DNA of 64,000 nucleotides from an uncultured bacterium (GCA_963978095.1 CAXBQP010000001.1:89095-153094), one strand, 5' to 3'. Counted from the first letter of the stretch, positions 25,881-64,000 are shown. Translations and numbers: made by a program. Notes: generated by a model not told the origin, from the sequence alone.

Positions 25881-25967
25881 AGTCTATAGTTGAGGCGGCG
25901 GTGTCGCAACATCCTGACACTTTCTTTGTCCCTCTCTCTTGACACAACGCGCGCCATGCCCTAATCT
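25881..25967. promoter_or_regulatory. Back-to-back bchI / crtF promoters with a tandem PpsR/CrtJ-type operator pair
   Basis: Operators TGTCGCAACATCCTGACA (25902-25919) and TGTCCCTCTCTCTTGACA (25927-25944) are separated by 7 bp. The plus strand reads TTGACA(25939-44)-N17-TAATCT(25962-67). The minus strand reads TTGCGA (complement of 25904-09)-N17-TAGACT (complement of 25881-86). Confidence 0.65.
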
Positions 25968-27279: not shown

Positions 27280-27323
27280 TGTCAGCTTTTTGAGACGATT
27301 TTTATTGTAAGCGTTTGTTTACA
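27280..27323. promoter_or_regulatory. Tandem PpsR/CrtJ-type operators in an AT-rich island upstream of bchC
   Basis: TGTCAGCTTTTTGAGACG (27280-97, imperfect) is followed after 8 bp by TGTAAGCGTTTGTTTACA (27306-23, a perfect TGT-N12-ACA with TGTAA/TTACA arms). -35-like TTGAAT and TTGAGA hexamers lie nearby. Confidence 0.65.
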
Positions 27324-33372: not shown

Positions 33373-33507
33373 ATGTCGCAGAACAACGGTATGACGGAAG
33401 AGGACGCAAAAGCGTTCCACGGCTACTTCATCATGATGATGAGCGTGTTCGTGGGTACGGCGATTGCGGCGCATCTGCTGATGTGGAGCTGGCGGCCCTG
33501 GTTCTGA
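33373..33507 (+). CDS. pufB: Light-harvesting 1 beta polypeptide
   Basis: Absent from the ORF track because it is under 60 aa. My translation is MSQNNGMTEEDAKAFHGYFIMMMSVFVGTAIAAHLLMWSWRPWF. It has the conserved 'AxxFH' and 'A(A)H..xWxWRPW' BChl-His motifs. GGAGGAG lies 3 nt upstream. Confidence 0.9.
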   Translation: MSQNNGMTEEDAKAFHGYFIMMMSVFVGTAIAAHLLMWSWRPWF

Positions 33508-33546
33508 TCGCCACTTCATCAATCACCTGAGACCTGAGGTTTCATT

Positions 33547-33711
33547 ATGCATCGAATTTGGGTTGGACTCGACCCGCGCGTGGTCCTGTCCTGCGTCGGA
33601 TCATTCCTGACGATCACGGTTCTCGTGATGCACCTGTTTGCATTCAAGGCGCTGAACTGGCCGGGATCGATTTCGCAGAAGTATCCGGCTTACCACGCGC
33701 AGGCCAAGTAA
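33547..33711 (+). CDS. pufA: Light-harvesting alpha polypeptide, copy 1
   Basis: Absent from the ORF track. My translation is MHRIWVGLDPRVVLSCVGSFLTITVLVMHLFAFKALNWPGSISQKYPAYHAQAK. It has the 'MHRIW..DPR' N-terminus and His29 in the TM helix. GAGG lies upstream. Confidence 0.85.
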   Translation: MHRIWVGLDPRVVLSCVGSFLTITVLVMHLFAFKALNWPGSISQKYPAYHAQAK

Positions 33712-33812
33712 GCCGACCGTGACGCGATGGAACTTGGAGAGAGTCTCGGGGGGTCCGAGACGGGCCACCCGGCCTCTCCGGTTCCTCCGCCAAACAATCA
33801 GAGGAGACAAGC

Positions 33813-34028
33813 ATGCATCGCATTTGGCTGGCCTTTGACCCGCGCAGGGTTCTGATCGCGCTGTTCGGGTTCCTCGGAGTGCTGGCGTTCCTGATCCACT
33901 TCATCCTGCTCAGCTCGAGCCGGTACTCGTGGATCGAGAATGGGACTCTCACGCCGGAGCAGCTCAAGCCGGCGGCGAGCGCTCCAGCAGCGACGGCCGA
34001 AATGGCCCCGTTGCCGCCCGGGCGGTAA
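33813..34028 (+). CDS. pufA: Light-harvesting alpha polypeptide, copy 2, with Ala/Pro-rich C-terminal tail
   Basis: The 71-aa protein '[44 protein letters not shown]..' has His29. Its tail is '[19 protein letters not shown]'. AGAGGAG lies upstream. Confidence 0.85.
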
Positions 34029-34044
34029 GTGGTCGTATGTGACT

Positions 34045-34094
34045 GACGGAGGGACGGCGTACGTGGTGGTGCCGCCGTTCGCCTTCCCTCCGTC
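34045..34094 (+). other. Intercistronic stem-loop between pufA copy 2 and pufL
   Basis: GACGGAGGGA (34045-54) pairs with TCCCTCCGTC (34085-94). An inner ACGGCG / CGCCGT pairing follows. Read directly from the sequence. Confidence 0.55.
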
Positions 34095-34154
34095 GGTCCC
34101 GCTCTACCTCCACCGCGCAGTGCAGGCGGGGATCCGACTTTCGGAGACTGACTC

Positions 34155-34979
34155 ATGGCAATGCTAAGTTTCGAGAAGAAGTACCGGGTACGCGGGGGCA
34201 CGCTGATCGGAGGCGACCTGTTCGATTTCTGGTTCGGGCCGTTCTACGTCGGCTTCTTCGGCGTCACTGCCGTCTTCTTCATCACACTTGGGACCCTACT
34301 CTGCGTCTATGCCGCCGCAATCGGCCCGACGTGGAACATCTGGCAGATCAACATCGCACCGCCCGACCTGAAATACGGTCTGGGGTTCGCGCCGCTCAAG
34401 GAGGGTGGGCTCTGGCAGCTCATCACCCTCTGCGCGACTGGCGCGTTCGTCAGCTGGGCGCTGCGGCAGGCGGAGATCGCGCGCAAGCTGGGCATGGGCA
34501 TGCACATCCCGTGGGCCTACGGCGTCGCGGTATTCGCCTACGTCACACTTGTCATCATTCGTCCGGTTCTCCTGGGCGCGTGGGGACACGGGTTCCCGTA
34601 CGGCATCTTCAGTCATCTCGACTGGGTGTCGAATGTCGGGTATCAGTATCTCCATTTCCATTACAACCCGGCTCACATGCTGGGCGTGACTTTCTTCTTC
34701 ACCACGTGCCTCGCGCTCGCGATGCACGGGTCACTCATCCTGTCGGTGACCAACCCGCCGAAGGGTGAACCGGTGAAGACCAGTGAGCACGAAAACGTGT
34801 TCTTCCGCGACTTGGTCGGATACTCGATCGGCGCGATCGGCATCCACCGCCTCGGTCTCTTCCTGGCGCTGTCTGCCGGCATCTGGAGCGCGATCTGCAT
34901 CGTGATCTCCGGGCCGCTGTGGACCAAGGGATGGCCGGAATGGTGGTCCTGGTGGCTCAACCTTCCCATCTGGCGCTAA
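34155..34979 (+). CDS. pufL: Photosynthetic reaction centre L subunit
   Basis: '[36 protein letters not shown]' and a 274-aa five-TM pattern. Confidence 0.95.
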
Positions 34980-34991
34980 GGGGACTGACCC

Positions 34992-36233
34992 ATGCTTGAA
35001 TACCAGAACCTCTTTACCCGCGTCCAGGTTCGGACGGCGCCCGACCCGGGCTTGCCCATCGACGAAGGCCTTGGCATGCGCCTCGGCAAGGGCGGTTACG
35101 GCGTGCTCGGCTATTGGCTCGGCAAGCTCGGCGACGCCCAGCTTGGCCCGATCTATCTCGGCCTCGAAGGAGCCGCCTCGCTGTTCTTCGGCTTTCTTGC
35201 CATCGAGATCATCGGACTGAACATGTGGCGCTCCGTGGGGTGGAGCCCCGTCCAGTTCGTCCGCCAGCTGCCCTGGCTCGCCCTCGAGCCGCCATCGCCG
35301 GAGTACGGCCTGCATATTCCACCGCTCGACAAAGGCGGGTGGTATCTCATTGCCGGCTTCTTCCTGACCGCGGCCATCTTCTTGTGGTGGATGCGCACCT
35401 ACAAGCGCGCCAAGGCCCTGAAGATGGGGATGCATCTCTGCTGGGCGTTCGGTTCGGCCATCTTCCTGTACATGGCCTTCTTCCTGCAGCCTGTCCTCGT
35501 CGGGTCGTACAGCGAGATGGTCCCATTCGGGCTCTTCCCCCATCTGGACTGGACGTCGGCCTTCTCGATCCGCTACGGGAACCTGTATTACAATCCGTTT
35601 CACGCGCTGTCGATCGTCTTCCTGTATGGATCGGCGCTGCTGTGGGCGATGCACGGCGCCACCATTCTGGCGGTCAGTCGCTACGGCGGTGAACGCGAGA
35701 TCGAGCAGATCACGGATCGTGGTACAGCCGCGGAGCGCTCACAGCTGTTCTGGCGCTGGTGCATGGGGTGGAACGCCACCATGGAATCGATTCACCGTTG
35801 GGCGTGGTGGTTCGCCGTGCTGACCACCTTCACGGGAGGGATTGGCATCCTGCTGACGGGAACGGTCGTTGACAACTGGTATCTCTGGGCCGTCAAGCAT
35901 CATGTCGCACCCGAGTATCCCAAGCAGAACACGCTCAGTGCACAGGAACTCGAACGCCTCCGCGGACGGTACGCCGGACGCATGAAGGGCGGGTATCCCA
36001 GCTACACTGTTCCGCAGACGGCGACCCCGATGGATGCACCGGCCGCACCAGGCACGCCGTCCGTCGTCGGCGCGCCGACCGCATCGCCGAACGCATCGCC
36101 GAGCATCGCGACACCAGCGGCAGCACCAGCCGCTGCGGCTCCTGCCGCGCAGTTGCCGGCATCGAAGCCTGCCGGCGGCGCTCCTGCTCCGAACCCCGCA
36201 GCGCCGGCGACACCGGCCGGGAGGAAGCCGTGA
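34992..36233 (+). CDS. pufM: Photosynthetic reaction centre M subunit with ~100-aa C-terminal extension
   Basis: The canonical core runs to '..[17 protein letters not shown]' (about aa 310). The same ORF then continues through an Ala/Pro-rich tail to aa 413. Its stop overlaps the pufC start. Confidence 0.9.
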
Positions 36234-37354
36234 TGAAGCGCTCGTTCCTGATGCCACTGCGCAACAGTGCGCTGCTGGTGGCCACCCTCGCACTCGGCGC
36301 GTGTCGGTTCATCGACAACCGTGAGACTTCCCAACGCGGATATCGCGGGACGGGCATGCAGGTGGTGTATCCCTACAAGGCGACGGCGCACGCGTTCCAG
36401 GCAACGCGGTTGCCCAGCGTGCCGCCACCAGCCGGCGAGTCCCCGCCGGGTCCGCTGCCGTGGAAGAACGTCCAGGTGCTCAACGACGTGAGCGTCGCGG
36501 AGTTCAACCGGACGATGATCTCCATGGCGGAATGGGTCGCCGGGCCTGGCAACTGCCAGTACTGCCACAACGTGGCCAACTTCGCCTCGGATACCGCGAA
36601 CAACGGCAAACCGCTCTACACCAAGCTGGTGGCGCGTCGCATGTTGCAGATGACCCGCAACATCAACGGCAACTGGCAGGCCCACGTCGCGAACACCGGA
36701 GTCACCTGCTACACCTGTCACCGTGGGAAGCCGCTGCCGAACGGCCTGTGGTTCTACAGCAGCGAAACCCAGTACCTGCGGCATTATCTCGATTCCACGG
36801 GCGCACGCGTGGTCTCGCACCAGATCTCGCCGAGCAACGCCAACCGGTCGAGCGTCAAGCAAACCGAGTGGACGTACGCCCTGATGATCTCGCAGGCTCG
36901 CTCGCTTGGGGTGAACTGCACGTACTGCCACAACACGCGTCAGTTCGCCAGCTGGGAACAAGCCCCGCCGCAGCGCGTCAAGGCGTATGACGGCATTCAG
37001 ATGTTGCGCGATGTCAATCGCAACTACTTGGCACCGTTGCAGCCGGTGTTTCCCGCGGTGCGGCTCGGTGCCAAGGGTGATGCCCCCAAGGCCCAGTGCT
37101 TGACCTGTCACAACGGGGTCTACAAGCCCCTGTACGGGGCTCAGATGGTCAAGAACTACCCCGCGCTATGGGGACGTGACGCGTGGGCCGGGGTACCGTT
37201 CCCGGGCATCCACGGCCCGGCCAAACCGGACAGCGGCAAGAAGGTGGCCTCCGGGCAAACGACGGTCACGGGCCCCGTCACCGTCCCCACTCCGATGGCG
37301 AAGGCGACGGCACCGGTCGCAAAGCCGACCCGGAGTGTACAGGAGCACCAGTAA
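36233..37354 (+). CDS. pufC: Reaction-centre tetraheme cytochrome c subunit (lipoprotein-type N-terminus)
   Basis: Four CxxCH motifs (CQYCH, CYTCH, CTYCH, CLTCH). Lipobox-like 'LALGAC'. GTG 36230 and ATG 36233 are in the same frame. Confidence 0.9.
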   Translation: MKRSFLMPLRNSALLVATLALGACRFIDNRETSQRGYRGTGMQVVYPYKATAHAFQATRLPSVPPPAGESPPGPLPWKNVQVLNDVSVAEFNRTMISMAEWVAGPGNCQYCHNVANFASDTANNGKPLYTKLVARRMLQMTRNINGNWQAHVANTGVTCYTCHRGKPLPNGLWFYSSETQYLRHYLDSTGARVVSHQISPSNANRSSVKQTEWTYALMISQARSLGVNCTYCHNTRQFASWEQAPPQRVKAYDGIQMLRDVNRNYLAPLQPVFPAVRLGAKGDAPKAQCLTCHNGVYKPLYGAQMVKNYPALWGRDAWAGVPFPGIHGPAKPDSGKKVASGQTTVTGPVTVPTPMAKATAPVAKPTRSVQEHQ

Positions 37355-37966: not shown

Positions 37967-38616
37967 ACGGTAACCGCGGAGAACCCGGTGATGCTGCCCG
38001 CGGCAGCGCCAGACGCTGGTGCAGCAGCCTCCGGTGCCGCTCCCTCGACGGCCAACGCGGCCGTCCGGAGGATCGCGCCGACGGCTGCGGCATCCCGCAG
38101 TCCGCGCAGGACCGGCTGCGGATTCTTGAGGTGCCAGGCTCTCACATGCGGCCACAGAATCAGCCACGCGAGTCGATCCGCCGATTGGACTTCGATCGCG
38201 ATTTGCCCGGTCCCATCGCGGAACATGCGCGTCGCAGCCCCCCGGATCGACCGGAGTGGAAGATTCAGGGTCATCGGCAGTACGATGCCGATGCGCATCA
38301 CCACGCGACGATCCGTGATGATGTACCGCGTCGTCCGCGCGCAAGCCACCGCCAGCACGAACGCGATGAGGATGGCGAACGCGGCGCTCCCGAGTTGCAG
38401 GCCCAGCATCTCTCGGAACTCGGCACTGCCGAGCGCCGATCGGGTGTTGAACGCCCACGCCCCGATCACCACGGCGAAATAGACGGTCAGCGCCCACACG
38501 TGGAACGCGTGCCGCGCGAGCGCCGCTCGATCAGGCTGTTCCTCCCACAGCACCCGCTCCCCGACCGGAAGAGGTTCAGGGGCGCCAGGGATAAACCTCC
38601 GCTCGTCCACGACCAT
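37963..38616 (-). CDS. puhB: Photosynthetic complex assembly protein PuhB
   Basis: 217 aa containing 'RYIITDRRVVMRIGI' and 'WPHVR'. ATGA overlap with the stop of the puhA C-terminal ORF. Confidence 0.75.
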   Translation of the reverse strand: MVVDERRFIPGAPEPLPVGERVLWEEQPDRAALARHAFHVWALTVYFAVVIGAWAFNTRSALGSAEFREMLGLQLGSAAFAILIAFVLAVACARTTRYIITDRRVVMRIGIVLPMTLNLPLRSIRGAATRMFRDGTGQIAIEVQSADRLAWLILWPHVRAWHLKNPQPVLRGLRDAAAVGAILRTAALAVEGAAPEAAAPASGAAAGSITGFSAVTV

Positions 38617-39161
38617 CAGAGCAGCGGTTGCGAGCGATCCGGCGTGGCGTACAGGTGACCGCCACCGTAGTACGCGCAAATCTTGTCTTCCTCCAAAAGG
38701 GTAATCTCGGTGCGGCTCTTCGTCCCCGGCACCTCGGAGAACTGGGCCGCCGTGATCGCCTTGACGCGCACATGATCCAACCCGAACAACCCCAAGTTCG
38801 GCCACGCCACGAACGTCACCGGGAGCAGAACGTGTCGTCCGCCCGTCGCGAGCGTCACCTCGTAATACCGGACCTGCGGCTCCGACCGATCGACCCACAG
38901 ATCGGAGATCGTACCGGCGACGACGCCGTCACAGGCGCGTACCGGCAATCCACGCGGATCCGGATCCCCTTCGGCGATCGAGAAATCCGTGGCCACCTGC
39001 ATCGGCACGATCTTCGGCTTGCCATGGGCGGTCAGATCCGGCACATCCGCTCGCTGTGCCCAGGAGGCAGGGCCCACCCCGTCGATCATCGGATTGCCCG
39101 TCGGAACGAACGGCGATCCATTGAACCCGTCGACGGGTTCCATTTTCAAATCCTGACTCAT
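38616..39161 (-). CDS. puhA: Reaction-centre H subunit, cytoplasmic domain, encoded as a separate ORF
   Basis: '[88 protein letters not shown]' is collinear with the C-terminal ~70% of canonical PuhA. ATG 39161 overlaps the upstream ORF stop (ATGA). GGGAGG lies upstream. Confidence 0.85.
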
Positions 39162-39364
39162 GCGTGTCCGCCTCCCTGCGTATGATCGGGGTGAATGAAC
39201 GTCTTCGGTTCCGGGACCGTGGGCCACCCTTCACGGGGACCCTGGGGCGACTCGAGCGGATATCCCTCGCGCTTGTCCTCACGGCGGAGATACACGATCA
39301 ACCCGAAGAAAAAGAGCCAGAAACAGTACAGCGCGATTTGCGCAGCGTCGAAATAGTGTGTCAT
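39158..39364 (-). CDS. puhA: Reaction-centre H subunit, N-terminal transmembrane segment, encoded as a separate ORF
   Basis: The 68-aa protein '[38 protein letters not shown]..' is the canonical PuhA TM helix with the [11 protein letters not shown] motif. It ends at a TGA in a different frame from the cytoplasmic-domain ORF. Confidence 0.85.
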
Positions 39365-40847: not shown

Positions 40848-41915
40848 TCACCAGACCGGTTCAAGACGGAAGTTCACAGGCAGTTCCGCGTGCTTGGCCG
40901 GCAAGAGGAACATGCGGGCGAAAATCACGGCATTGGACGCCTTCGCCACTGCCCCACGCAACACACCACCGAGGCCGCCCGTCTTCTCCGCCTCGGCGAT
41001 AGCCAGCGTGTTCTGGTACATGGACTCCATCAAGGCCCACAACTTGGGATTGTCCACGTCGATCGTCACCGGGAAGACTTGGCGGCTGATCTCATTGGTC
41101 AAGGCGATCACGCGACGATCGAAATCGTTGACATCGAATCCCAACTGCTTGAAGAAATCCGCGCGCAGATGGTCACGGACATACATCGTCGCAAACACCG
41201 CCAAGAGGAAGAAGCGGATCCACAGCTTGTTGCCGCCGCGCAGGAACTGCGGGTTGGCACGCATCAGAATGGCGAACGCCTCACCATGCCGGAACTCATC
41301 ATGGCACCAGTTCTCGAACCACTTGAAGATCGGGTGGAACCGGAACTCGGGATGGGCTTCGAGCTGCCGATAGATCGTGATGTAGCGGGCGTATCCGATC
41401 TTCTCGGAGAGATAGGTGGCGTAATAGATGTACTTCGGCTTGAAGTACGTGTACTTCTTGGCCCTGGTCAGGAAGCTCAGATCCACCGCGACGTTGAAAT
41501 CATTCAACGTATGGTTGATGAATCCGGCGTGCCGCCCTTCGTCGCGGCTCATGAAACCGAACAACTCGCGGATATCCTTGTTCTTCACCCGCTTCTTGAT
41601 CTCCGCGTACAGGATGCAGCCCGAGAACTCCGCCGTGACCGAGCTCGTCAAGAACTCGATGAAGGAGCGCTGCAGCTCGAGTGGCCATCCGGTCCAATCC
41701 AAGTCGAAGTCGGCGTTGCGCTTGAAGTGGTCCTTGTTGGGATCGCGCCGGAACTCATCCACCATTGCATCCCACATCTCACGCATCGACTCCACGTTCA
41801 AGCGGTCGAGTTCGTCGAAATCCGTGGTGTAGAAGCGCGGATTCAGCGCGGCATCCTCACGCGCGGCCTTCGTCGTCTCGTTGATGGGCGCTGCCGTCGT
41901 CGCGTCGTACATCAT
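40848..41915 (-). CDS. acsF: Aerobic Mg-protoporphyrin IX monomethyl ester oxidative cyclase
   Basis: Di-iron motifs 'SRDEGRHAGF' and 'CHDEFRHGEAF'. 'FYTTDF' N-terminus. 355 aa. Confidence 0.95.
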   Translation of the reverse strand: MMYDATTAAPINETTKAAREDAALNPRFYTTDFDELDRLNVESMREMWDAMVDEFRRDPNKDHFKRNADFDLDWTGWPLELQRSFIEFLTSSVTAEFSGCILYAEIKKRVKNKDIRELFGFMSRDEGRHAGFINHTLNDFNVAVDLSFLTRAKKYTYFKPKYIYYATYLSEKIGYARYITIYRQLEAHPEFRFHPIFKWFENWCHDEFRHGEAFAILMRANPQFLRGGNKLWIRFFLLAVFATMYVRDHLRADFFKQLGFDVNDFDRRVIALTNEISRQVFPVTIDVDNPKLWALMESMYQNTLAIAEAEKTGGLGGVLRGAVAKASNAVIFARMFLLPAKHAELPVNFRLEPVW

Positions 41916-42244
41916 CAGCCCTCGAACCCCACTTCGTACAGGTCGGTGATTCCACTCGTGCCGAGCACACGCACCAGCACGCGCCGCGGCCAGCTCACCT
42001 GCGTGACGGTCGCGCGGGAGGTCATGATGGCCTTGGTCCCGATCGGGATCTTCGATGGTGCCGCATGCACCAGCACTTCATCGCCCTCGTTCACGTCGAT
42101 GCCGTCGAGCTCCACATGCGCGTGGAAGTGATCCTGCGTGGCCTCAAGATCGATGGTACACGGGACTTCCGAGCGGCGTCGGGCCAGCATCCAGGCCCCG
42201 AGCACCACCACGGTTCCCAGTCCTGCGAGGAGGGACGTGTTCAT
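41915..42244 (-). CDS. Small membrane-anchored protein of unknown function, translationally coupled to acsF
   Basis: The 109-aa protein begins 'MNTSLLAGLGTVVVLGAWMLARRR', a TM anchor, and continues into a soluble His/Asp-rich domain. GAGG lies upstream. Its stop overlaps the acsF ATG (ATGA). Confidence 0.6.
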   Translation of the reverse strand: MNTSLLAGLGTVVVLGAWMLARRRSEVPCTIDLEATQDHFHAHVELDGIDVNEGDEVLVHAAPSKIPIGTKAIMTSRATVTQVSWPRRVLVRVLGTSGITDLYEVGFEG

Positions 42245-42254
42245 CGTGACGACC

Positions 42255-43046
42255 TCATGCGCCCACTCCGAGGACCACCTCGTCATCATCCGACGACGTC
42301 GTCCGCACGAGTTCAAGCGCTTGTGAGATGTAGAAGGCGCTCTGCACGCGGGTCGTGCGAGCGGGGGTCCAGTCGCCGAGCGTCGGCGACGTCGCGATTG
42401 CCTCGTACAGCAATCGCCGGCGCAACGGCTCGATGGCCGGCGCGCGGTTCGTGTGCTCGGTATGCGGCACAAGCCGTCCCACGGCGTGCATCAGCTCGAG
42501 CAACGGCGTACTCGGGGCGTACGTCGCCACGATCGAACCGCGGGTCCGCGCCGCCAGCGCGGATACGGCATGCATGACGTCCTCGAGCCGATAGTGGATC
42601 AGCGAATCCATCGCAAACACGTGATCGAACTCGCCGAACTCCGGGGACAACATGTCACCGGCGGAAAACTCGATGCGGCCCGACAGAGGCTCCTCGGCCA
42701 TGCGCGCCAGGCCGACCTCCACCGCCGACGGCGCCAGATCGATCGCCACCACGTCCGCGCCGCGGCGCGCGAGCTCGATCGATGCCGTGCCCGTGCCGCA
42801 CCCGGCATCGAGAACGCGCTTCCCGGTCAGGTCGGCGGGTAACCACGAGAGCAACGTGTCGCGCATGTTCGCGCGTCCCGCGCGAACCGTCGCCCGGATC
42901 CTGCTCACCGGAGCATCCGAGGTCAGCGCCTTCCATCCATCGGAGGCCGTCCGGTCGAAATACTCCGTCAGCCACGACCGCCGTTCGGCATACGTGGAGG
43001 GAATCGATTCGCCGGCGCCCCGCACCGCGTGACTGGATGATGTCAC
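42255..43046 (-). CDS. bchM: Mg-protoporphyrin IX methyltransferase
   Basis: 'KRVLDAGCGTGTASIELARRGADVVAIDL' SAM fold. GTG 43046 lies 2 nt after the bchL stop. The longer track ORF overlaps bchL. Confidence 0.9.
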   Translation of the reverse strand: MTSSSHAVRGAGESIPSTYAERRSWLTEYFDRTASDGWKALTSDAPVSRIRATVRAGRANMRDTLLSWLPADLTGKRVLDAGCGTGTASIELARRGADVVAIDLAPSAVEVGLARMAEEPLSGRIEFSAGDMLSPEFGEFDHVFAMDSLIHYRLEDVMHAVSALAARTRGSIVATYAPSTPLLELMHAVGRLVPHTEHTNRAPAIEPLRRRLLYEAIATSPTLGDWTPARTTRVQSAFYISQALELVRTTSSDDDEVVLGVGA

Positions 43047-53580: not shown

Positions 53581-53624
53581 TGTCAACTAGGGTTGACATA
53601 TAGTGGTGTAACGCCGACAATACA
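53581..53624. promoter_or_regulatory. bchG promoter with a tandem PpsR/CrtJ-type operator pair
   Basis: The perfect TGTCAACTAGGGTTGACA (53581-98) is followed after 8 bp by TGTAACGCCGACAATACA (53607-24). TTGACA(53593-98)-N17-GACAAT(53616-21) is embedded in the two sites. Confidence 0.7.
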
Positions 53625-62246: not shown

Positions 62247-62909
62247 GTGGATCGGGTGCGGCCATTCGAGGGTGCCTCCGACACGCTGTCGGCACAGCTG
62301 CGCGACCGCACCAAGGACGCGCATCACGCCGCCGAACGCAGCGGCGTGATGGCGGCGTTGTTGCGCGGCCAGATGACGCGCAGCACCTACGCCCTGTTGC
62401 TGCGCAGCCTGCATCCGATCTATGACGCGCTCGAGCGGGGCCTGGCGAGCGCGGCGCACGATCCGTGGATCGCTCCGATCCACGCCCCGCGGGTCTGGCG
62501 CACGGCCGCCCTCGAGCGGGATCTGGTGTATTTCGCCGGCCCCGCGTGGGCTGCGTTGCCGATCGCGCCGGCGGCCATGGGTTACGCACAGCGGCTGGAC
62601 GCGCTCCGGCGCGAGCACCCGGGGCAGCTCGTCGCCCACGCCTATGTCCGGTATCTCGGTGACCTCAATGGCGGACAGATCCTCGCCCGGGTGGTGCGAA
62701 AGGCGCTCGGGTTGACTGACGCGGCCGGGACGGCGTTCTACGAGTTCGCGGAGATCGACGACCTGCGCGCGGAGTCCGGCCGGTGGCGGGCCGCGCTGGA
62801 CGCGGTGCCGGCCGACCTGGAAGGCCGCGCGCGCCTCGCCGACGAGGCACTCGTCGGGTTCGACTTGCACATCCGGATGTTCGCCGAGATCGCGGCGCTG
62901 GCAGCGTAG
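62247..62909 (+). CDS. Biliverdin-producing heme oxygenase (BphO/HmuO type)
   Basis: 'LRDRTKDAHHAAE' carries the proximal His, and 'YVRYLGDLNGGQ' is the distal helix. GTG start 1 nt after the hemF stop. Confidence 0.8.
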   Translation: MDRVRPFEGASDTLSAQLRDRTKDAHHAAERSGVMAALLRGQMTRSTYALLLRSLHPIYDALERGLASAAHDPWIAPIHAPRVWRTAALERDLVYFAGPAWAALPIAPAAMGYAQRLDALRREHPGQLVAHAYVRYLGDLNGGQILARVVRKALGLTDAAGTAFYEFAEIDDLRAESGRWRAALDAVPADLEGRARLADEALVGFDLHIRMFAEIAALAA

Positions 62910-62920
62910 GGCCGTCGGCG

Positions 62921-64000
62921 CTACGGCGCGCCGTCGGGACCGATGTAGCTCGACAGGATACTGGTCAGATGCGCGGCGTGCCGGGTGGAATCCTCCACTT
63001 CCCGCAGCAGCGGTGCGACGGAGGCCACCGTGACGGCGTCGGCGATCTCGCTCACGGCGACGCCCGCGTTGGCCCAGATGGCGGCCATGAGTCCCTGCAG
63101 GTCCGGGGGGAGATCGCGGGCGCCAGGGAGGGCCGGTTGCTGCGCGCGCAGAATTGCATGTTGGAGTCGCAGGCGCGCGGCCTCGGTCGCCTTCCGTGCG
63201 GTGAGGTCCGTCAGCATCACGATGAATCCGAGCGCCGTGCCGTGCGGGCCCGGGACTTGGTCGGCGCGCACGGCGACCGGCACCGACACGCCGTCGCCAG
63301 CCACGAGCGCGAGTTCGCCGCGCCACGGCCGTCGTTCGTTGCGGACGCCGTGCACCATCTGCAGGAACCGCTGGGGCTCCGTGAAATGCGGCGCGAGATC
63401 GACCAGCGATTCCCAGGCACGGTGCGGACGCCGGATCATGCCGCCGAGCGCATCGTTCGCGATCAGGATGCGACCGTTGGCGTCGGCGATGATGACCGGC
63501 TCGGTGGAGCGTTCGACCGCCGTACGCACGCGTTGGAGCTGGTTTTCGGCGATCAGGACGCGCACTGCGCGGATTTGCAGGATCAGATCCGTCAGTGAGG
63601 CTCCGACGGCGCGCGCCAGCGCGAGCTCCCTCGGCTCCCAGGGCGACGCCGTGTCGCGCACGATCTGGTGCCACTCGGCGAACGAGCGGCGGGGTGACAG
63701 CTCCCGGGGATCGTTCCCCATGACCACCTTGTGGGGATCACCGCCCCAGACGACGTCGTGCAGCTGCTCCTTGCGGAACCACGCGAAATATTCGCCAGTG
63801 CCCGGCGCCAATTCGATGGCCAGCACGCCGCTCGCCAGCGGCGAGAGCGACGCCAGTCCGGGATTCAGCCGCGAGATGGCGTTGCTCTGAAAGAGCGAGC
63901 CATCGTTGCGTCCCTGCAGCCAGGCAAAGAGCGCGCGCAGTTCGACCGTGGAGGGGACATCGCCGGCCGTCATGAGTTCGCCCTCATACATGAGCGCGGC
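62921..64000 (-). CDS. Bacteriophytochrome, C-terminal part only (PHY tongue + PAS + helical output; no kinase domain); 5' end outside the window
   Basis: PHY-tongue motifs 'WGGDP' and 'PRRSFAEW' are followed by the PAS segment 'EPVIIADANGRILIANDA..' and a ~95-aa helical C-terminus. No H-box or HATPase motifs are present. The frame is open to the window edge. Confidence 0.75.
   Translation of the reverse strand, partial: AALMYEGELMTAGDVPSTVELRALFAWLQGRNDGSLFQSNAISRLNPGLASLSPLASGVLAIELAPGTGEYFAWFRKEQLHDVVWGGDPHKVVMGNDPRELSPRRSFAEWHQIVRDTASPWEPRELALARAVGASLTDLILQIRAVRVLIAENQLQRVRTAVERSTEPVIIADANGRILIANDALGGMIRRPHRAWESLVDLAPHFTEPQRFLQMVHGVRNERRPWRGELALVAGDGVSVPVAVRADQVPGPHGTALGFIVMLTDLTARKATEAARLRLQHAILRAQQPALPGARDLPPDLQGLMAAIWANAGVAVSEIADAVTVASVAPLLREVEDSTRHAAHLTSILSSYIGPDGAP

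What the first reader, a model, noticed from the sequence alone, without database searches (positions are those of the whole stretch)
33373..34028. One pufB followed by two strongly diverged pufA genes
I hand-translated two ORFs that are missing from the ORF track: pufB (44 aa) and a first pufA (54 aa). A second pufA (71 aa) follows.

Both alpha proteins start MHRIW..DPR and place the BChl-ligating His at residue 29. They diverge completely after that: 'VMHLFAFKALNWPGSISQKYPAYHAQAK' against '[45 protein letters not shown]'.

There is only one beta gene and no puc (LH2) genes in the window. A 1-beta / 2-alpha arrangement predicts two spectrally or structurally distinct alpha-beta rings sharing one beta. 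That fits the double-ring (LH1 + outer ring) photosystem reported for G. phototrophica, as far as I remember.
Basis: partly seen in the sequence, partly recalled or inferred. Interest (0 to 1): 0.7.

Follow-up and report, generated by a model that had tools for sequence, protein, structure and literature searches.

The report
Gemmatimonas-type double-ring antenna genes
The three small genes are real and match the published antenna gene set of phototrophic Gemmatimonadota, in which one beta subunit pairs with two different alpha subunits to build two concentric light-harvesting rings; this is a further, uncultured example of a known system.

Summary
pufB is at 33373-33507 (44 aa), a 54-aa alpha at 33547-33711 and a 71-aa alpha at 33813-34028. 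All three sit directly upstream of pufLMC inside a contiguous photosynthesis gene cluster.

The 54-aa protein's best solved-structure match is LHh-alpha, the outer 24-mer ring subunit of the G. phototrophica RC-dLH complex (7O0U, E 9e-15). The 71-aa protein matches the inner-ring LH1-alpha of G. phototrophica and G. groenlandica (E 1e-31). The beta matches their single shared beta.

The literature (Qian 2022, Gardiner 2025) already describes this arrangement: one pufB serving pufA1 (LH1) and pufA2 (LHh).

All three genes have Shine-Dalgarno sites and dN/dS of about 0.1-0.35. The order B-A2-A1-L recurs in about 10 related metagenomic lineages. The split puhA typical of this group is also present.

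The window is not either cultured species (beta 55%, LHh-alpha 50%, LH1-alpha 73% identity).

Small local differences:
- LHh-alpha has Phe31, not the spectral-tuning Trp31.
- Beta has Ala14 and Phe26.
- A hairpin-bearing 101-nt spacer separates pufA2 from pufA1.

The parts
33373..33507 (+). pufB: single 44-aa LH beta polypeptide, predicted to serve both rings. Has His34, Arg41, Pro42 and Trp43. Ala14 and Phe26 replace the Arg14 and Tyr26 of G. phototrophica.
   Evidence: Pfam LHC E 1e-08. PDB 7o0u_BA E 5e-13 over the full length. 24/44 identical to the G. phototrophica beta. dN/dS 0.13-0.26 against related loci.
33547..33711 (+). pufA2 in the literature's naming: 54-aa LHh-type alpha, the outer-ring subunit. 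Has Arg3, Gly7, Ser15, His29 and Trp38. Phe31 replaces Trp31.
   Evidence: PDB best hit is 7o0u_AA 'LHh-alpha', E 8.8e-15. 24/48 identical. No Pfam hit. GAGG lies 8 nt upstream of the ATG. dN/dS 0.22-0.32. Identical protein on 33 public contigs.
33729..33785 (+). Stem-loop in the 101-nt pufA2-pufA1 spacer. Candidate mRNA-stability element.
   Evidence: MFE -35.6 kcal/mol for 57 nt. Whole spacer z -1.7 with dinucleotide shuffles and -2.3 with mononucleotide shuffles. L008 has the same architecture with an identical core and a different but still complementary outer stem. Absent from L007 and L009-L011, where the spacer is about 10 nt.
33813..34028 (+). pufA1 in the literature's naming: 71-aa LH1-type alpha, the inner-ring subunit. 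Has His29, Arg37, Trp40, Asn43 and the conserved C-terminal ..[10 protein letters not shown] extension.
   Evidence: PDB 9h19_Aa E 7.6e-32 and 7o0u_aa E 1.1e-31, both full length. Pfam LHC E 1e-14. 52/71 identical to G. phototrophica. AGAGGAGA lies upstream of the ATG. dN/dS 0.13-0.25.
34041..34098 (+). Strong stem-loop in the pufA1-pufL intercistronic spacer, in the position of the classical pufA-pufL hairpin.
   Evidence: The 126-nt spacer folds at -63.6 kcal/mol, z -2.79, with 1 of 200 shuffles folding as well. A strong hairpin of unrelated sequence sits at the same place in L007-L013.
34155..37354 (+). pufL (34155-34979), pufM (34992-36233) and pufC (36233-37354): reaction-centre L and M subunits and the tetrahaem cytochrome.
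   Evidence: Pfam Photo_RC E 5e-100 and 3e-100, CytoC_RC E 2e-102. Public gene calls agree.
38616..39364 (-). Split puhA: puhA1 (Ht, 68 aa, 39158-39364) and puhA2 (Hc, 181 aa, 38616-39161), joined by an ATGA stop/start overlap.
   Evidence: PDB 7o0u_H1 E 2e-31 and 9h22_H 'Ht' E 2e-32. 7o0u_H2 'RC-Hc' E 5e-79. Overlap read directly from the sequence.

Best explanation
These are the antenna genes of a Gemmatimonadota-type RC-dLH photosystem, in the operon order pufB-pufA2-pufA1-pufL-pufM-pufC.

The single 44-aa beta pairs with the 71-aa alpha (PufA1). By analogy with the solved complexes, these form the inner LH1 ring of 16 subunits around the reaction centre. The same beta pairs with the 54-aa alpha (PufA2) to form the outer LHh ring of 24 subunits. 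Each heterodimer holds two BChl a, ligated by alpha-His29 and beta-His34.

LH1-alpha keeps Trp40, which hydrogen-bonds the BChl acetyl group and red-shifts absorption. LHh-alpha has no equivalent donor. The outer ring should therefore absorb at higher energy and pass excitation inward.

Shown here: the genes, their orthology to the structurally assigned chains, purifying selection, the conserved gene order and the split puhA.

Inferred: that the two rings assemble in this organism, their 16/24 stoichiometry and their spectra. Because LHh-alpha residue 31 is Phe, the Trp31-BChl hydrogen bond that merges the two absorption bands in G. groenlandica cannot form. I therefore expect a blue-shifted outer band, as in G. 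phototrophica.

Also inferred: the hairpins after pufA2 and after pufA1 protect the upstream mRNA segments from 3'-5' decay. That would favour antenna over reaction-centre transcripts, as is established for the Rhodobacter puf operon.
For: - PDB sequence searches: 54-aa alpha to 'LHh-alpha' 7O0U, E 8.8e-15; 71-aa alpha to the LH1-alphas of 7O0U and 9H19, E about 1e-31; beta to the shared beta of 7O0U, E 5e-13.
- Literature: one pufB serves both rings; pufA1 encodes the inner alpha and pufA2 the outer (PMC8849296). pufA2 arose by duplication of pufA1 after the horizontal transfer, and is present in Gemmatimonas and Pseudogemmatithrix (PMC12817894).
- Only three LH-like ORFs in the window.
- Shine-Dalgarno sites before all three genes.
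- dN/dS 0.1-0.35 for all three genes across six lineages. All five nucleotide differences in a population variant (L003) are synonymous.
- The B-A2-A1-L order recurs in L001-L015.
- Split puhA, Ht plus Hc.
- Ligand and most hydrogen-bond residues are conserved, by reading the sequence.
- The hairpin after pufA1 is present in every related locus, with unrelated sequences.
Against: - There are no biochemical, spectral or structural data for this organism.
- Identity to the solved LHh-alpha is only 50% and to the beta 55%.
- Several residues that make contacts in the G. phototrophica structure differ: beta Arg14 to Ala (carotenoid carboxylate), beta Tyr26 to Phe, LHh-alpha Trp31 to Phe and Thr8 to Leu.
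- RC-S and RC-U homologues were not found among the unassigned ORFs of the window. They need not be encoded in the cluster.
- The pufA2-pufA1 hairpin is lineage-specific. RNAalifold on the two-sequence MAFFT alignment did not recover its outer stem.
Confidence: 0.9

Rival explanations
1. Both alphas are built into one heterogeneous LH1 ring, as in purple bacteria whose LH1 contains several alpha or beta isoforms (for example Allochromatium or Thiorhodovibrio-type multi-puf LH1). There would be no separate outer ring.
For: Multi-isoform LH1 chains appear among the PDB hits (7vrj LH1 alpha1/alpha2/alpha3; 7c9r alpha subunits 1 and 2). Nothing in the sequence alone fixes ring membership.
Against: The 54-aa alpha's best matches by about 10 orders of magnitude are chains assigned to the outer ring in two cryo-EM structures. 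It lacks the LH1-alpha C-terminal region, including Trp40, Asn43 and the extension that contacts the reaction centre. Multi-isoform LH1 systems have matching multiple betas, whereas here there is one.
Confidence: 0.04
2. The 54-aa alpha forms an accessory antenna that is not the canonical 24-mer concentric LHh. Examples would be a ring of different size, a free LH2-like ring, or one made only under some conditions.
For: The sequence is only 50% identical to the solved LHh-alpha, with changes at pigment and carotenoid contact residues on both alpha and beta. An extra hairpin separates pufA2 from pufA1 in this lineage, so expression could be uncoupled. Related lineages show further variation, including a locus with two betas and two LHh-type alphas.
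Against: pufA2 lies within the same operon, between pufB and pufA1. The inter-subunit residues Arg3 and Trp38 and beta Trp43 are conserved. No LH2-alpha appears among the PDB hits of the 54-aa protein at E <= 0.01. G. phototrophica shows minimal regulation of these genes (PMC11406998).
Confidence: 0.05
3. One of the two alpha genes is a decaying duplicate that is not translated.
For: The 54-aa ORF fails the Pfam LHC model and is annotated 'hypothetical protein' in public records.
Against: dN/dS is 0.14-0.37 across lineages. The ORF is intact, with a Shine-Dalgarno site, in every locus examined. His29 is conserved. The orthologue is seen in cryo-EM density in the outer ring of the G. phototrophica complex (PMC8849296).
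Confidence: 0.01

Closest known systems
Gemmatimonas phototrophica RC-dLH (PDB 7O0U-7O0X; Qian et al. 2022, PMC8849296)
   Same: One pufB plus a 54-aa LHh-alpha (pufA2) and a 71-aa LH1-alpha (pufA1) upstream of pufLMC. Alpha-His29 and beta-His34 ligands. LH1-alpha Arg37, Trp40, Asn43 and the C-terminal PLPPGR tail. LHh-alpha Arg3, Gly7, Ser15 and Trp38. puhA split into Ht and Hc.
   Different: Sequence identity is 55% (beta), 50% (LHh-alpha) and 73% (LH1-alpha). Beta has Arg14 to Ala and Tyr26 to Phe. LHh-alpha has Trp31 to Phe and Thr8 to Leu. RC-S and RC-U were not located in the window.
Gemmatimonas groenlandica RC-dLH (PDB 9H19, 9H22; Gardiner et al. 2025, PMC12817894)
   Same: Same gene set and double-ring architecture. 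LH1-alpha is 75% identical.
   Different: In G. groenlandica the LHh band is red-shifted to about 860 nm by an alpha-Trp31-BChl hydrogen bond. The window's LHh-alpha has Phe31 and cannot make that bond.
Purple-bacterial pufBALM(C) operon with its pufA-pufL intercistronic hairpin (Rhodobacter, Rubrivivax)
   Same: Operon layout, LH1-type alpha and beta, and a stable hairpin between the last antenna gene and pufL. From established knowledge, that hairpin stabilises the antenna mRNA segment.
   Different: Purple bacteria have one alpha per beta in this operon. Extra antenna capacity comes from separate pucBA (LH2) operons with their own beta, not from a second alpha sharing the LH1 beta.
Halorhodospira halophila LH1-LH2 double-ring co-complex (PMC11802735)
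   Same: It is a double-ring photocomplex.
   Different: By its title and abstract, it is an LH1-LH2 co-complex, not two rings sharing one beta.

Membership tests
Gemmatimonadota RC-dLH antenna gene set (pufB-pufA2-pufA1) | A single beta gene followed by two different alpha genes, immediately upstream of pufLMC | tested here: met
   Searches give the coordinates. The six-frame phmmer scan finds only three LH-like ORFs in 64 kb. pufL, pufM and pufC follow.
Gemmatimonadota RC-dLH antenna gene set (pufB-pufA2-pufA1) | The short alpha is homologous to the structurally assigned outer-ring LHh-alpha | tested here: met
   7o0u_AA 'LHh-alpha' E 8.8e-15 and 9h19_AA E 8.9e-10. The next hits are LH1-alphas at E > 1e-4.
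Gemmatimonadota RC-dLH antenna gene set (pufB-pufA2-pufA1) | The long alpha is homologous to the inner-ring LH1-alpha, including the C-terminal extension | tested here: met
   Full-length (1-71) matches to 9h19_Aa and 7o0u_aa at E about 1e-31.
Gemmatimonadota RC-dLH antenna gene set (pufB-pufA2-pufA1) | BChl ligands alpha-His29 (both alphas) and beta-His34 | tested here: met
   Read directly from the translations against PMC8849296 section 8.
Gemmatimonadota RC-dLH antenna gene set (pufB-pufA2-pufA1) | Pigment and subunit hydrogen-bond residues described for 7O0U. LH1: alpha Arg37, Trp40, Asn43. Beta: Arg14, Tyr26, Arg41, Pro42, Trp43. LHh: alpha Arg3, Gly7, Thr8, Ser15, Trp38. | tested here: inconclusive
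   Kept: LH1-alpha Arg37, Trp40, Asn43; beta Arg41, Pro42, Trp43; LHh-alpha Arg3, Gly7, Ser15, Trp38. Changed: beta Arg14 to Ala, beta Tyr26 to Phe, LHh-alpha Thr8 to Leu. The related MAG lineages aligned also have Phe at the position of beta 26.
Gemmatimonadota RC-dLH antenna gene set (pufB-pufA2-pufA1) | LHh alpha-Trp31. This is the spectral-tuning residue of the two cultured species and may not be defining for the family. | tested here: not met
   The window has Phe31. So do L007-L011, P0001-P0003, P0024, P0025, P0027, P0028 and P0031. Trp31 occurs only in P0029 and P0030 and in the cultured species (PMC12817894).
Gemmatimonadota RC-dLH antenna gene set (pufB-pufA2-pufA1) | RC-H split into Ht (puhA1) and Hc (puhA2) | tested here: met
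   68-aa Ht at 39158-39364(-) and 181-aa Hc at 38616-39161(-). PDB hits 7o0u_H1 and 7o0u_H2. ATGA overlap.
Gemmatimonadota RC-dLH antenna gene set (pufB-pufA2-pufA1) | Extrinsic subunits RC-S and RC-U | not testable with these tools
   A PDB search with concatenated unassigned ORFs of the window gave no 7O0U chain. The genes may lie elsewhere in the genome, which is not in the window.
Gemmatimonadota RC-dLH antenna gene set (pufB-pufA2-pufA1) | Physical complex of a 16-mer LH1 inside a 24-mer LHh, sharing one beta | not testable with these tools
   This needs purification and cryo-EM or mass spectrometry of the complex from this uncultured lineage.
LH2 / LH3 peripheral antenna (pucBA) | A dedicated pucB-pucA pair whose alpha is homologous to LH2 alphas | tested here: not met
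   No second beta in the window. No LH2-alpha chain among the PDB hits of the 54-aa alpha at E <= 0.01. The 71-aa alpha hits LH1-alphas at 1e-15 to 1e-9. Chains I take to be LH2-type (7zdi_A, 7ze8_A, named only 'Light-harvesting protein') score no better than 2e-4.
Pfam PF00556 LHC (antenna complex alpha/beta subunit) | Score above the gathering threshold (23 bits) | tested here: inconclusive
   Beta scores 35.6 bits and the 71-aa alpha 54.5 bits, so both are met. The 54-aa alpha has no hit at E <= 0.01, which fits its reported distance from proteobacterial pufA (PMC8849296).

The most novel reading that the evidence does not exclude
In this lineage and most uncultured LHh-bearing lineages, LHh-alpha carries Phe31 instead of Trp31. 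The rotamer-switch tuning described for cultured Gemmatimonas would then be a derived speciality, and a permanently blue-shifted outer ring (B816-like or bluer) would be the environmental norm.

In addition, a lineage-specific structured spacer after pufA2 may create three mRNA stability tiers (pufB-A2 > pufA1 > pufLMC). That would help match the 40:24:16:1 subunit demand from one operon.
Probability: 0.3. Interest if true: 0.35.

Novelty: new member of a known kind. Interest (0 to 1): 0.2.

Why it matters
It adds a divergent, uncultured example of the only photosystem known to build two concentric antenna rings from one beta and two alphas. It also shows that the gene order and the split puhA are conserved well beyond the two cultured Gemmatimonas species.

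The residue differences offer natural variants for testing how the outer ring's colour and carotenoid binding are set: Phe31 in LHh-alpha, and Ala14 and Phe26 in beta. The variable hairpin spacer is a lead on how subunit stoichiometry is achieved. None of this changes the current picture of the system.

Tried and rejected
1. A second beta or any puc-like gene in the window: none at E <= 1 in six frames.
2. Pseudogene status for either alpha: rejected by dN/dS and conservation.
3. LH2 affinity of the short alpha: no LH2-alpha hits.
4. RC-S and RC-U in the window: a concatenated-ORF PDB search found only a CutC-like fragment. This is uninformative about the genome.
5. Formal covariation for the pufA2-pufA1 hairpin: RNAalifold on the two-sequence MAFFT alignment recovered only the invariant core. 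The outer-stem argument rests on independent folds of the two sequences and n = 2.
6. Rfam, tRNA, sigma-70 promoter and intrinsic-terminator scans: no Rfam family, tRNA or promoter-like site; the terminator scan gave only two weak consensus matches inside pufL, no more than chance.
7. Exact source genome in the species-representative collection: not found; only relatives at 56-74% LHh-alpha identity. Identical proteins do exist on public metagenome and NCBI contigs.
8. Transcript-level data for pufB, pufA1 and pufA2 in PMC11406998: the main text gives none per gene.
9. P0026, a 723-aa repetitive protein from the representative search, is a spurious hit.

Full report
**Observation**

The region reads as the first-stage reader said.
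- pufB runs from ATG 33373 to stop 33507 and encodes MSQNNGMTEEDAKAFHGYFIMMMSVFVGTAIAAHLLMWSWRPWF (44 aa).
- After a 39-nt spacer, a 54-aa ORF (33547-33711) encodes MHRIWVGLDPRVVLSCVGSFLTITVLVMHLFAFKALNWPGSISQKYPAYHAQAK.
- After a 101-nt spacer, a 71-aa ORF (33813-34028) encodes [71 protein letters not shown].
- pufL starts at 34155.

Each ORF has a purine-rich Shine-Dalgarno motif 2-8 nt upstream: GGAGGAG, GAGG and AGAGGAGA. The two alphas align only over residues 1-29 (13/29 identical), ending at His29.

A six-frame stop-to-stop scan of all 64 kb (phmmer --max, E <= 1) finds no other LH-like ORF.

**Identity of the three proteins**

Sequence searches against all PDB chains are unambiguous.
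- The 54-aa protein's best hits are the 'LHh-alpha' chains of 7O0U-7O0X (E 8.8e-15) and the 56-aa chain of 9H19/9H22 (E 8.9e-10). Ordinary LH1-alphas follow only at E > 1e-4, and no LH2-alpha appears at E <= 0.01.
- The 71-aa protein matches the 71-aa inner-ring alphas of 9H19 and 7O0U end to end (E about 1e-31). Proteobacterial LH1-alphas follow at 1e-15 to 1e-9.
- The beta matches the 44-aa beta of 7O0U over its full length (E 5e-13).
- Pfam LHC recognises the beta and the long alpha but not the short one. In public gene calls the short alpha carries no Pfam hit and is named 'hypothetical protein'.

**What the literature says**

Qian et al. 2022 (PMC8849296) solved the G. phototrophica photosystem. 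A 16-subunit LH1 ring is encircled by a 24-subunit LHh ring. [quoted passage not shown]'

Gardiner et al. 2025 (PMC12817894) solved the G. groenlandica complex. They argue that pufA2 arose by duplication of pufA1 after the horizontal transfer of the photosynthesis gene cluster. They note pufA2 and a split puhA in Pseudogemmatithrix as well.

In the literature's naming, the first alpha in the operon (54 aa) is pufA2 and the second (71 aa) is pufA1.

**Context**

The window carries a contiguous photosynthesis gene cluster from about 22.2 to 61.3 kb.
- Minus strand: a DUF3623 (puhE-like) gene, bchD and bchI.
- Plus strand: crtF, bchC, bchX, bchY and bchZ.
- Minus strand: an alpha/beta-hydrolase.
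- Plus strand: pufB, pufA2, pufA1, pufL, pufM and pufC.
- Minus strand: puhC, puhB, puhA2, puhA1, lhaA, acsF, an unassigned ORF, bchM, bchL, bchH, bchB, bchN and probably bchF.
- Plus strand: a B12-binding protein, ppsR, bchG, a pucC-like gene, an FrhB-like gene, bchP, hemA and hemE.

The Gemmatimonadota hallmark of a split H subunit is present. Ht is 68 aa at 39158-39364(-) and Hc is 181 aa at 38616-39161(-). They match 7o0u_H1 and 7o0u_H2 (E 2e-31 and 5e-79), and their stop and start codons overlap as ATGA.

RC-S and RC-U homologues were not found among the unassigned ORFs. Nothing requires them to be in the cluster.

**Whose genome**

The window is neither cultured species. Identity to the G. 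phototrophica chains is 24/44 (beta), 24/48 (LHh-alpha) and 52/71 (LH1-alpha).

Identical proteins occur on 31-43 public contigs from NCBI, JGI, ENA and Logan, and six metagenome loci carry an identical PufL. The nearest species-representative genomes are MAGs labelled Gemmatimonas, Gemmatimonadaceae or Gemmatimonadales, at 56-74% LHh-alpha identity.

**Are both alphas functional**

Across six lineages, pairwise dN/dS is 0.01-0.27 for the beta, 0.07-0.37 for LHh-alpha and 0.03-0.49 for LH1-alpha. The single high value comes from a near-identical pair with few substitutions. One population variant (L003) differs from the window at five positions across the three genes, and all five are synonymous.

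The order B-A2-A1-L holds in every locus with enough sequence (L001-L015). An exhaustive HMMER scan of 1.84 billion representative proteins finds only about seven 50%-identity clusters of the LHh-alpha type, so this is a small, specialised family.

**Residues**

Compared with the contacts listed for 7O0U, the window keeps:
- alpha-His29 in both alphas and beta-His34;
- LH1-alpha Arg37, Trp40 and Asn43;
- beta Met7, Arg41, Pro42 and Trp43;
- LHh-alpha Arg3, Gly7, Ser15 and Trp38.

It differs at beta-14 (Ala for the Arg that binds the gemmatoxanthin carboxylate), beta-26 (Phe for Tyr), LHh-alpha-8 (Leu for Thr) and LHh-alpha-31 (Phe for Trp).

Trp31 is the residue whose rotamer decides whether the LHh band sits at 816 nm (G. 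phototrophica) or about 860 nm (G. groenlandica). Phe31 cannot donate that hydrogen bond. Phe31 is also the majority state among the environmental sequences recovered here, and Trp31 appears only in two clusters besides the cultured species. My inference is that the outer ring of this organism is permanently blue-shifted relative to LH1.

**mRNA structure**

The pufA1-pufL spacer contains a 14-bp-stem hairpin at 34041-34098. The spacer folds at -63.6 kcal/mol with z -2.8. A strong hairpin of unrelated sequence occupies the same position in every related locus.

This corresponds in position to the pufA-pufL hairpin that stabilises the antenna segment of the Rhodobacter puf mRNA. That function is established knowledge from other organisms and was not tested here.

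The 101-nt pufA2-pufA1 spacer holds a second hairpin at 33729-33785 (-35.6 kcal/mol). Its closest relative, L008, has the same architecture with an identical core. The outer stem has a different sequence but remains complementary. L013 and L016 also have structured spacers after an LHh-type alpha. L007 and L009-L011 have spacers of only about 10 nt.

RNAalifold on the two-sequence alignment did not recover the outer stem, so this evidence is suggestive only.

**Verdict**

The system is already described in the literature. This locus is a new, fairly divergent member with a few residue-level and spacer-level peculiarities.

Interest is low (0.2). Confidence that these genes encode a shared-beta, two-alpha, double-ring antenna is about 0.9.

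Noticed in passing
L016 1335-2159 (ENA ERZ1066119 NODE_12409): A related metagenome contig has a different antenna layout: beta (46 aa), an LHh-type alpha (69 aa), a very strong hairpin spacer (-64.7 kcal/mol), a second beta (44 aa) and a second LHh-type alpha (59 aa), then the contig ends. That is two betas and two LHh-like alphas rather than one shared beta.
   Followed up: partly
window 33637-33639 (codon 31 of the 54-aa alpha); L007-L011; P0001-P0031: LHh-alpha residue 31 is Phe in the window and in most environmental relatives. It is Trp only in clusters P0029 and P0030 and in the cultured species. The Trp31 rotamer-tuning mechanism published in 2025 cannot operate in the Phe31 lineages.
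   Followed up: partly
window 33712-33812; compare L008 3160-3261 and L013 2040-2141 with L007 and L009-L011: The pufA2-pufA1 spacer is either about 100 nt with a stable hairpin or only about 10 nt, depending on lineage. The window and L008 share the hairpin core, but their outer stems have different, still complementary, sequences.
   Followed up: yes
window 25902-25944 and 53581-53624: Two tandem pairs of TGT-N12-ACA palindromes (PpsR/CrtJ-type sites), with starts 25-26 nt apart. One pair lies in the divergent bchI / crtF-bchC region and one just upstream of bchG. A single site is at 27306, before bchC. None lies in the 150-nt region upstream of pufB. The total count (9) is not above chance (mean 6.0).
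   Followed up: partly
window 62247-62909 (+) and 62921-63991 (-): A heme oxygenase gene sits next to a PHY/PAS-domain protein (a bacteriophytochrome that runs off the window end). Both lie immediately beyond the hem genes that flank the photosynthesis gene cluster.
   Followed up: no
window 39158-39161 (-): The puhA1 stop and the puhA2 start overlap as ATGA, with GGAGG upstream. This suggests translational coupling of the two halves of the split H subunit.
   Followed up: yes
window 34992-36233; L013 3421-4497: PufM is 413 aa here, and 409-413 aa in the identical-PufL contigs, but 358 aa in the more distant LHh-bearing locus L013. The difference is presumably a variable C-terminal extension beyond the Photo_RC domain, which ends at residue 305.
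   Followed up: no
window 41915-42472 (-): The ORF between acsF and bchM has coding-like GC3 but no Pfam hit and no PDB match. Its product has one predicted hydrophobic helix (..LLAGLGTVVVLGAWML..).
   Followed up: partly
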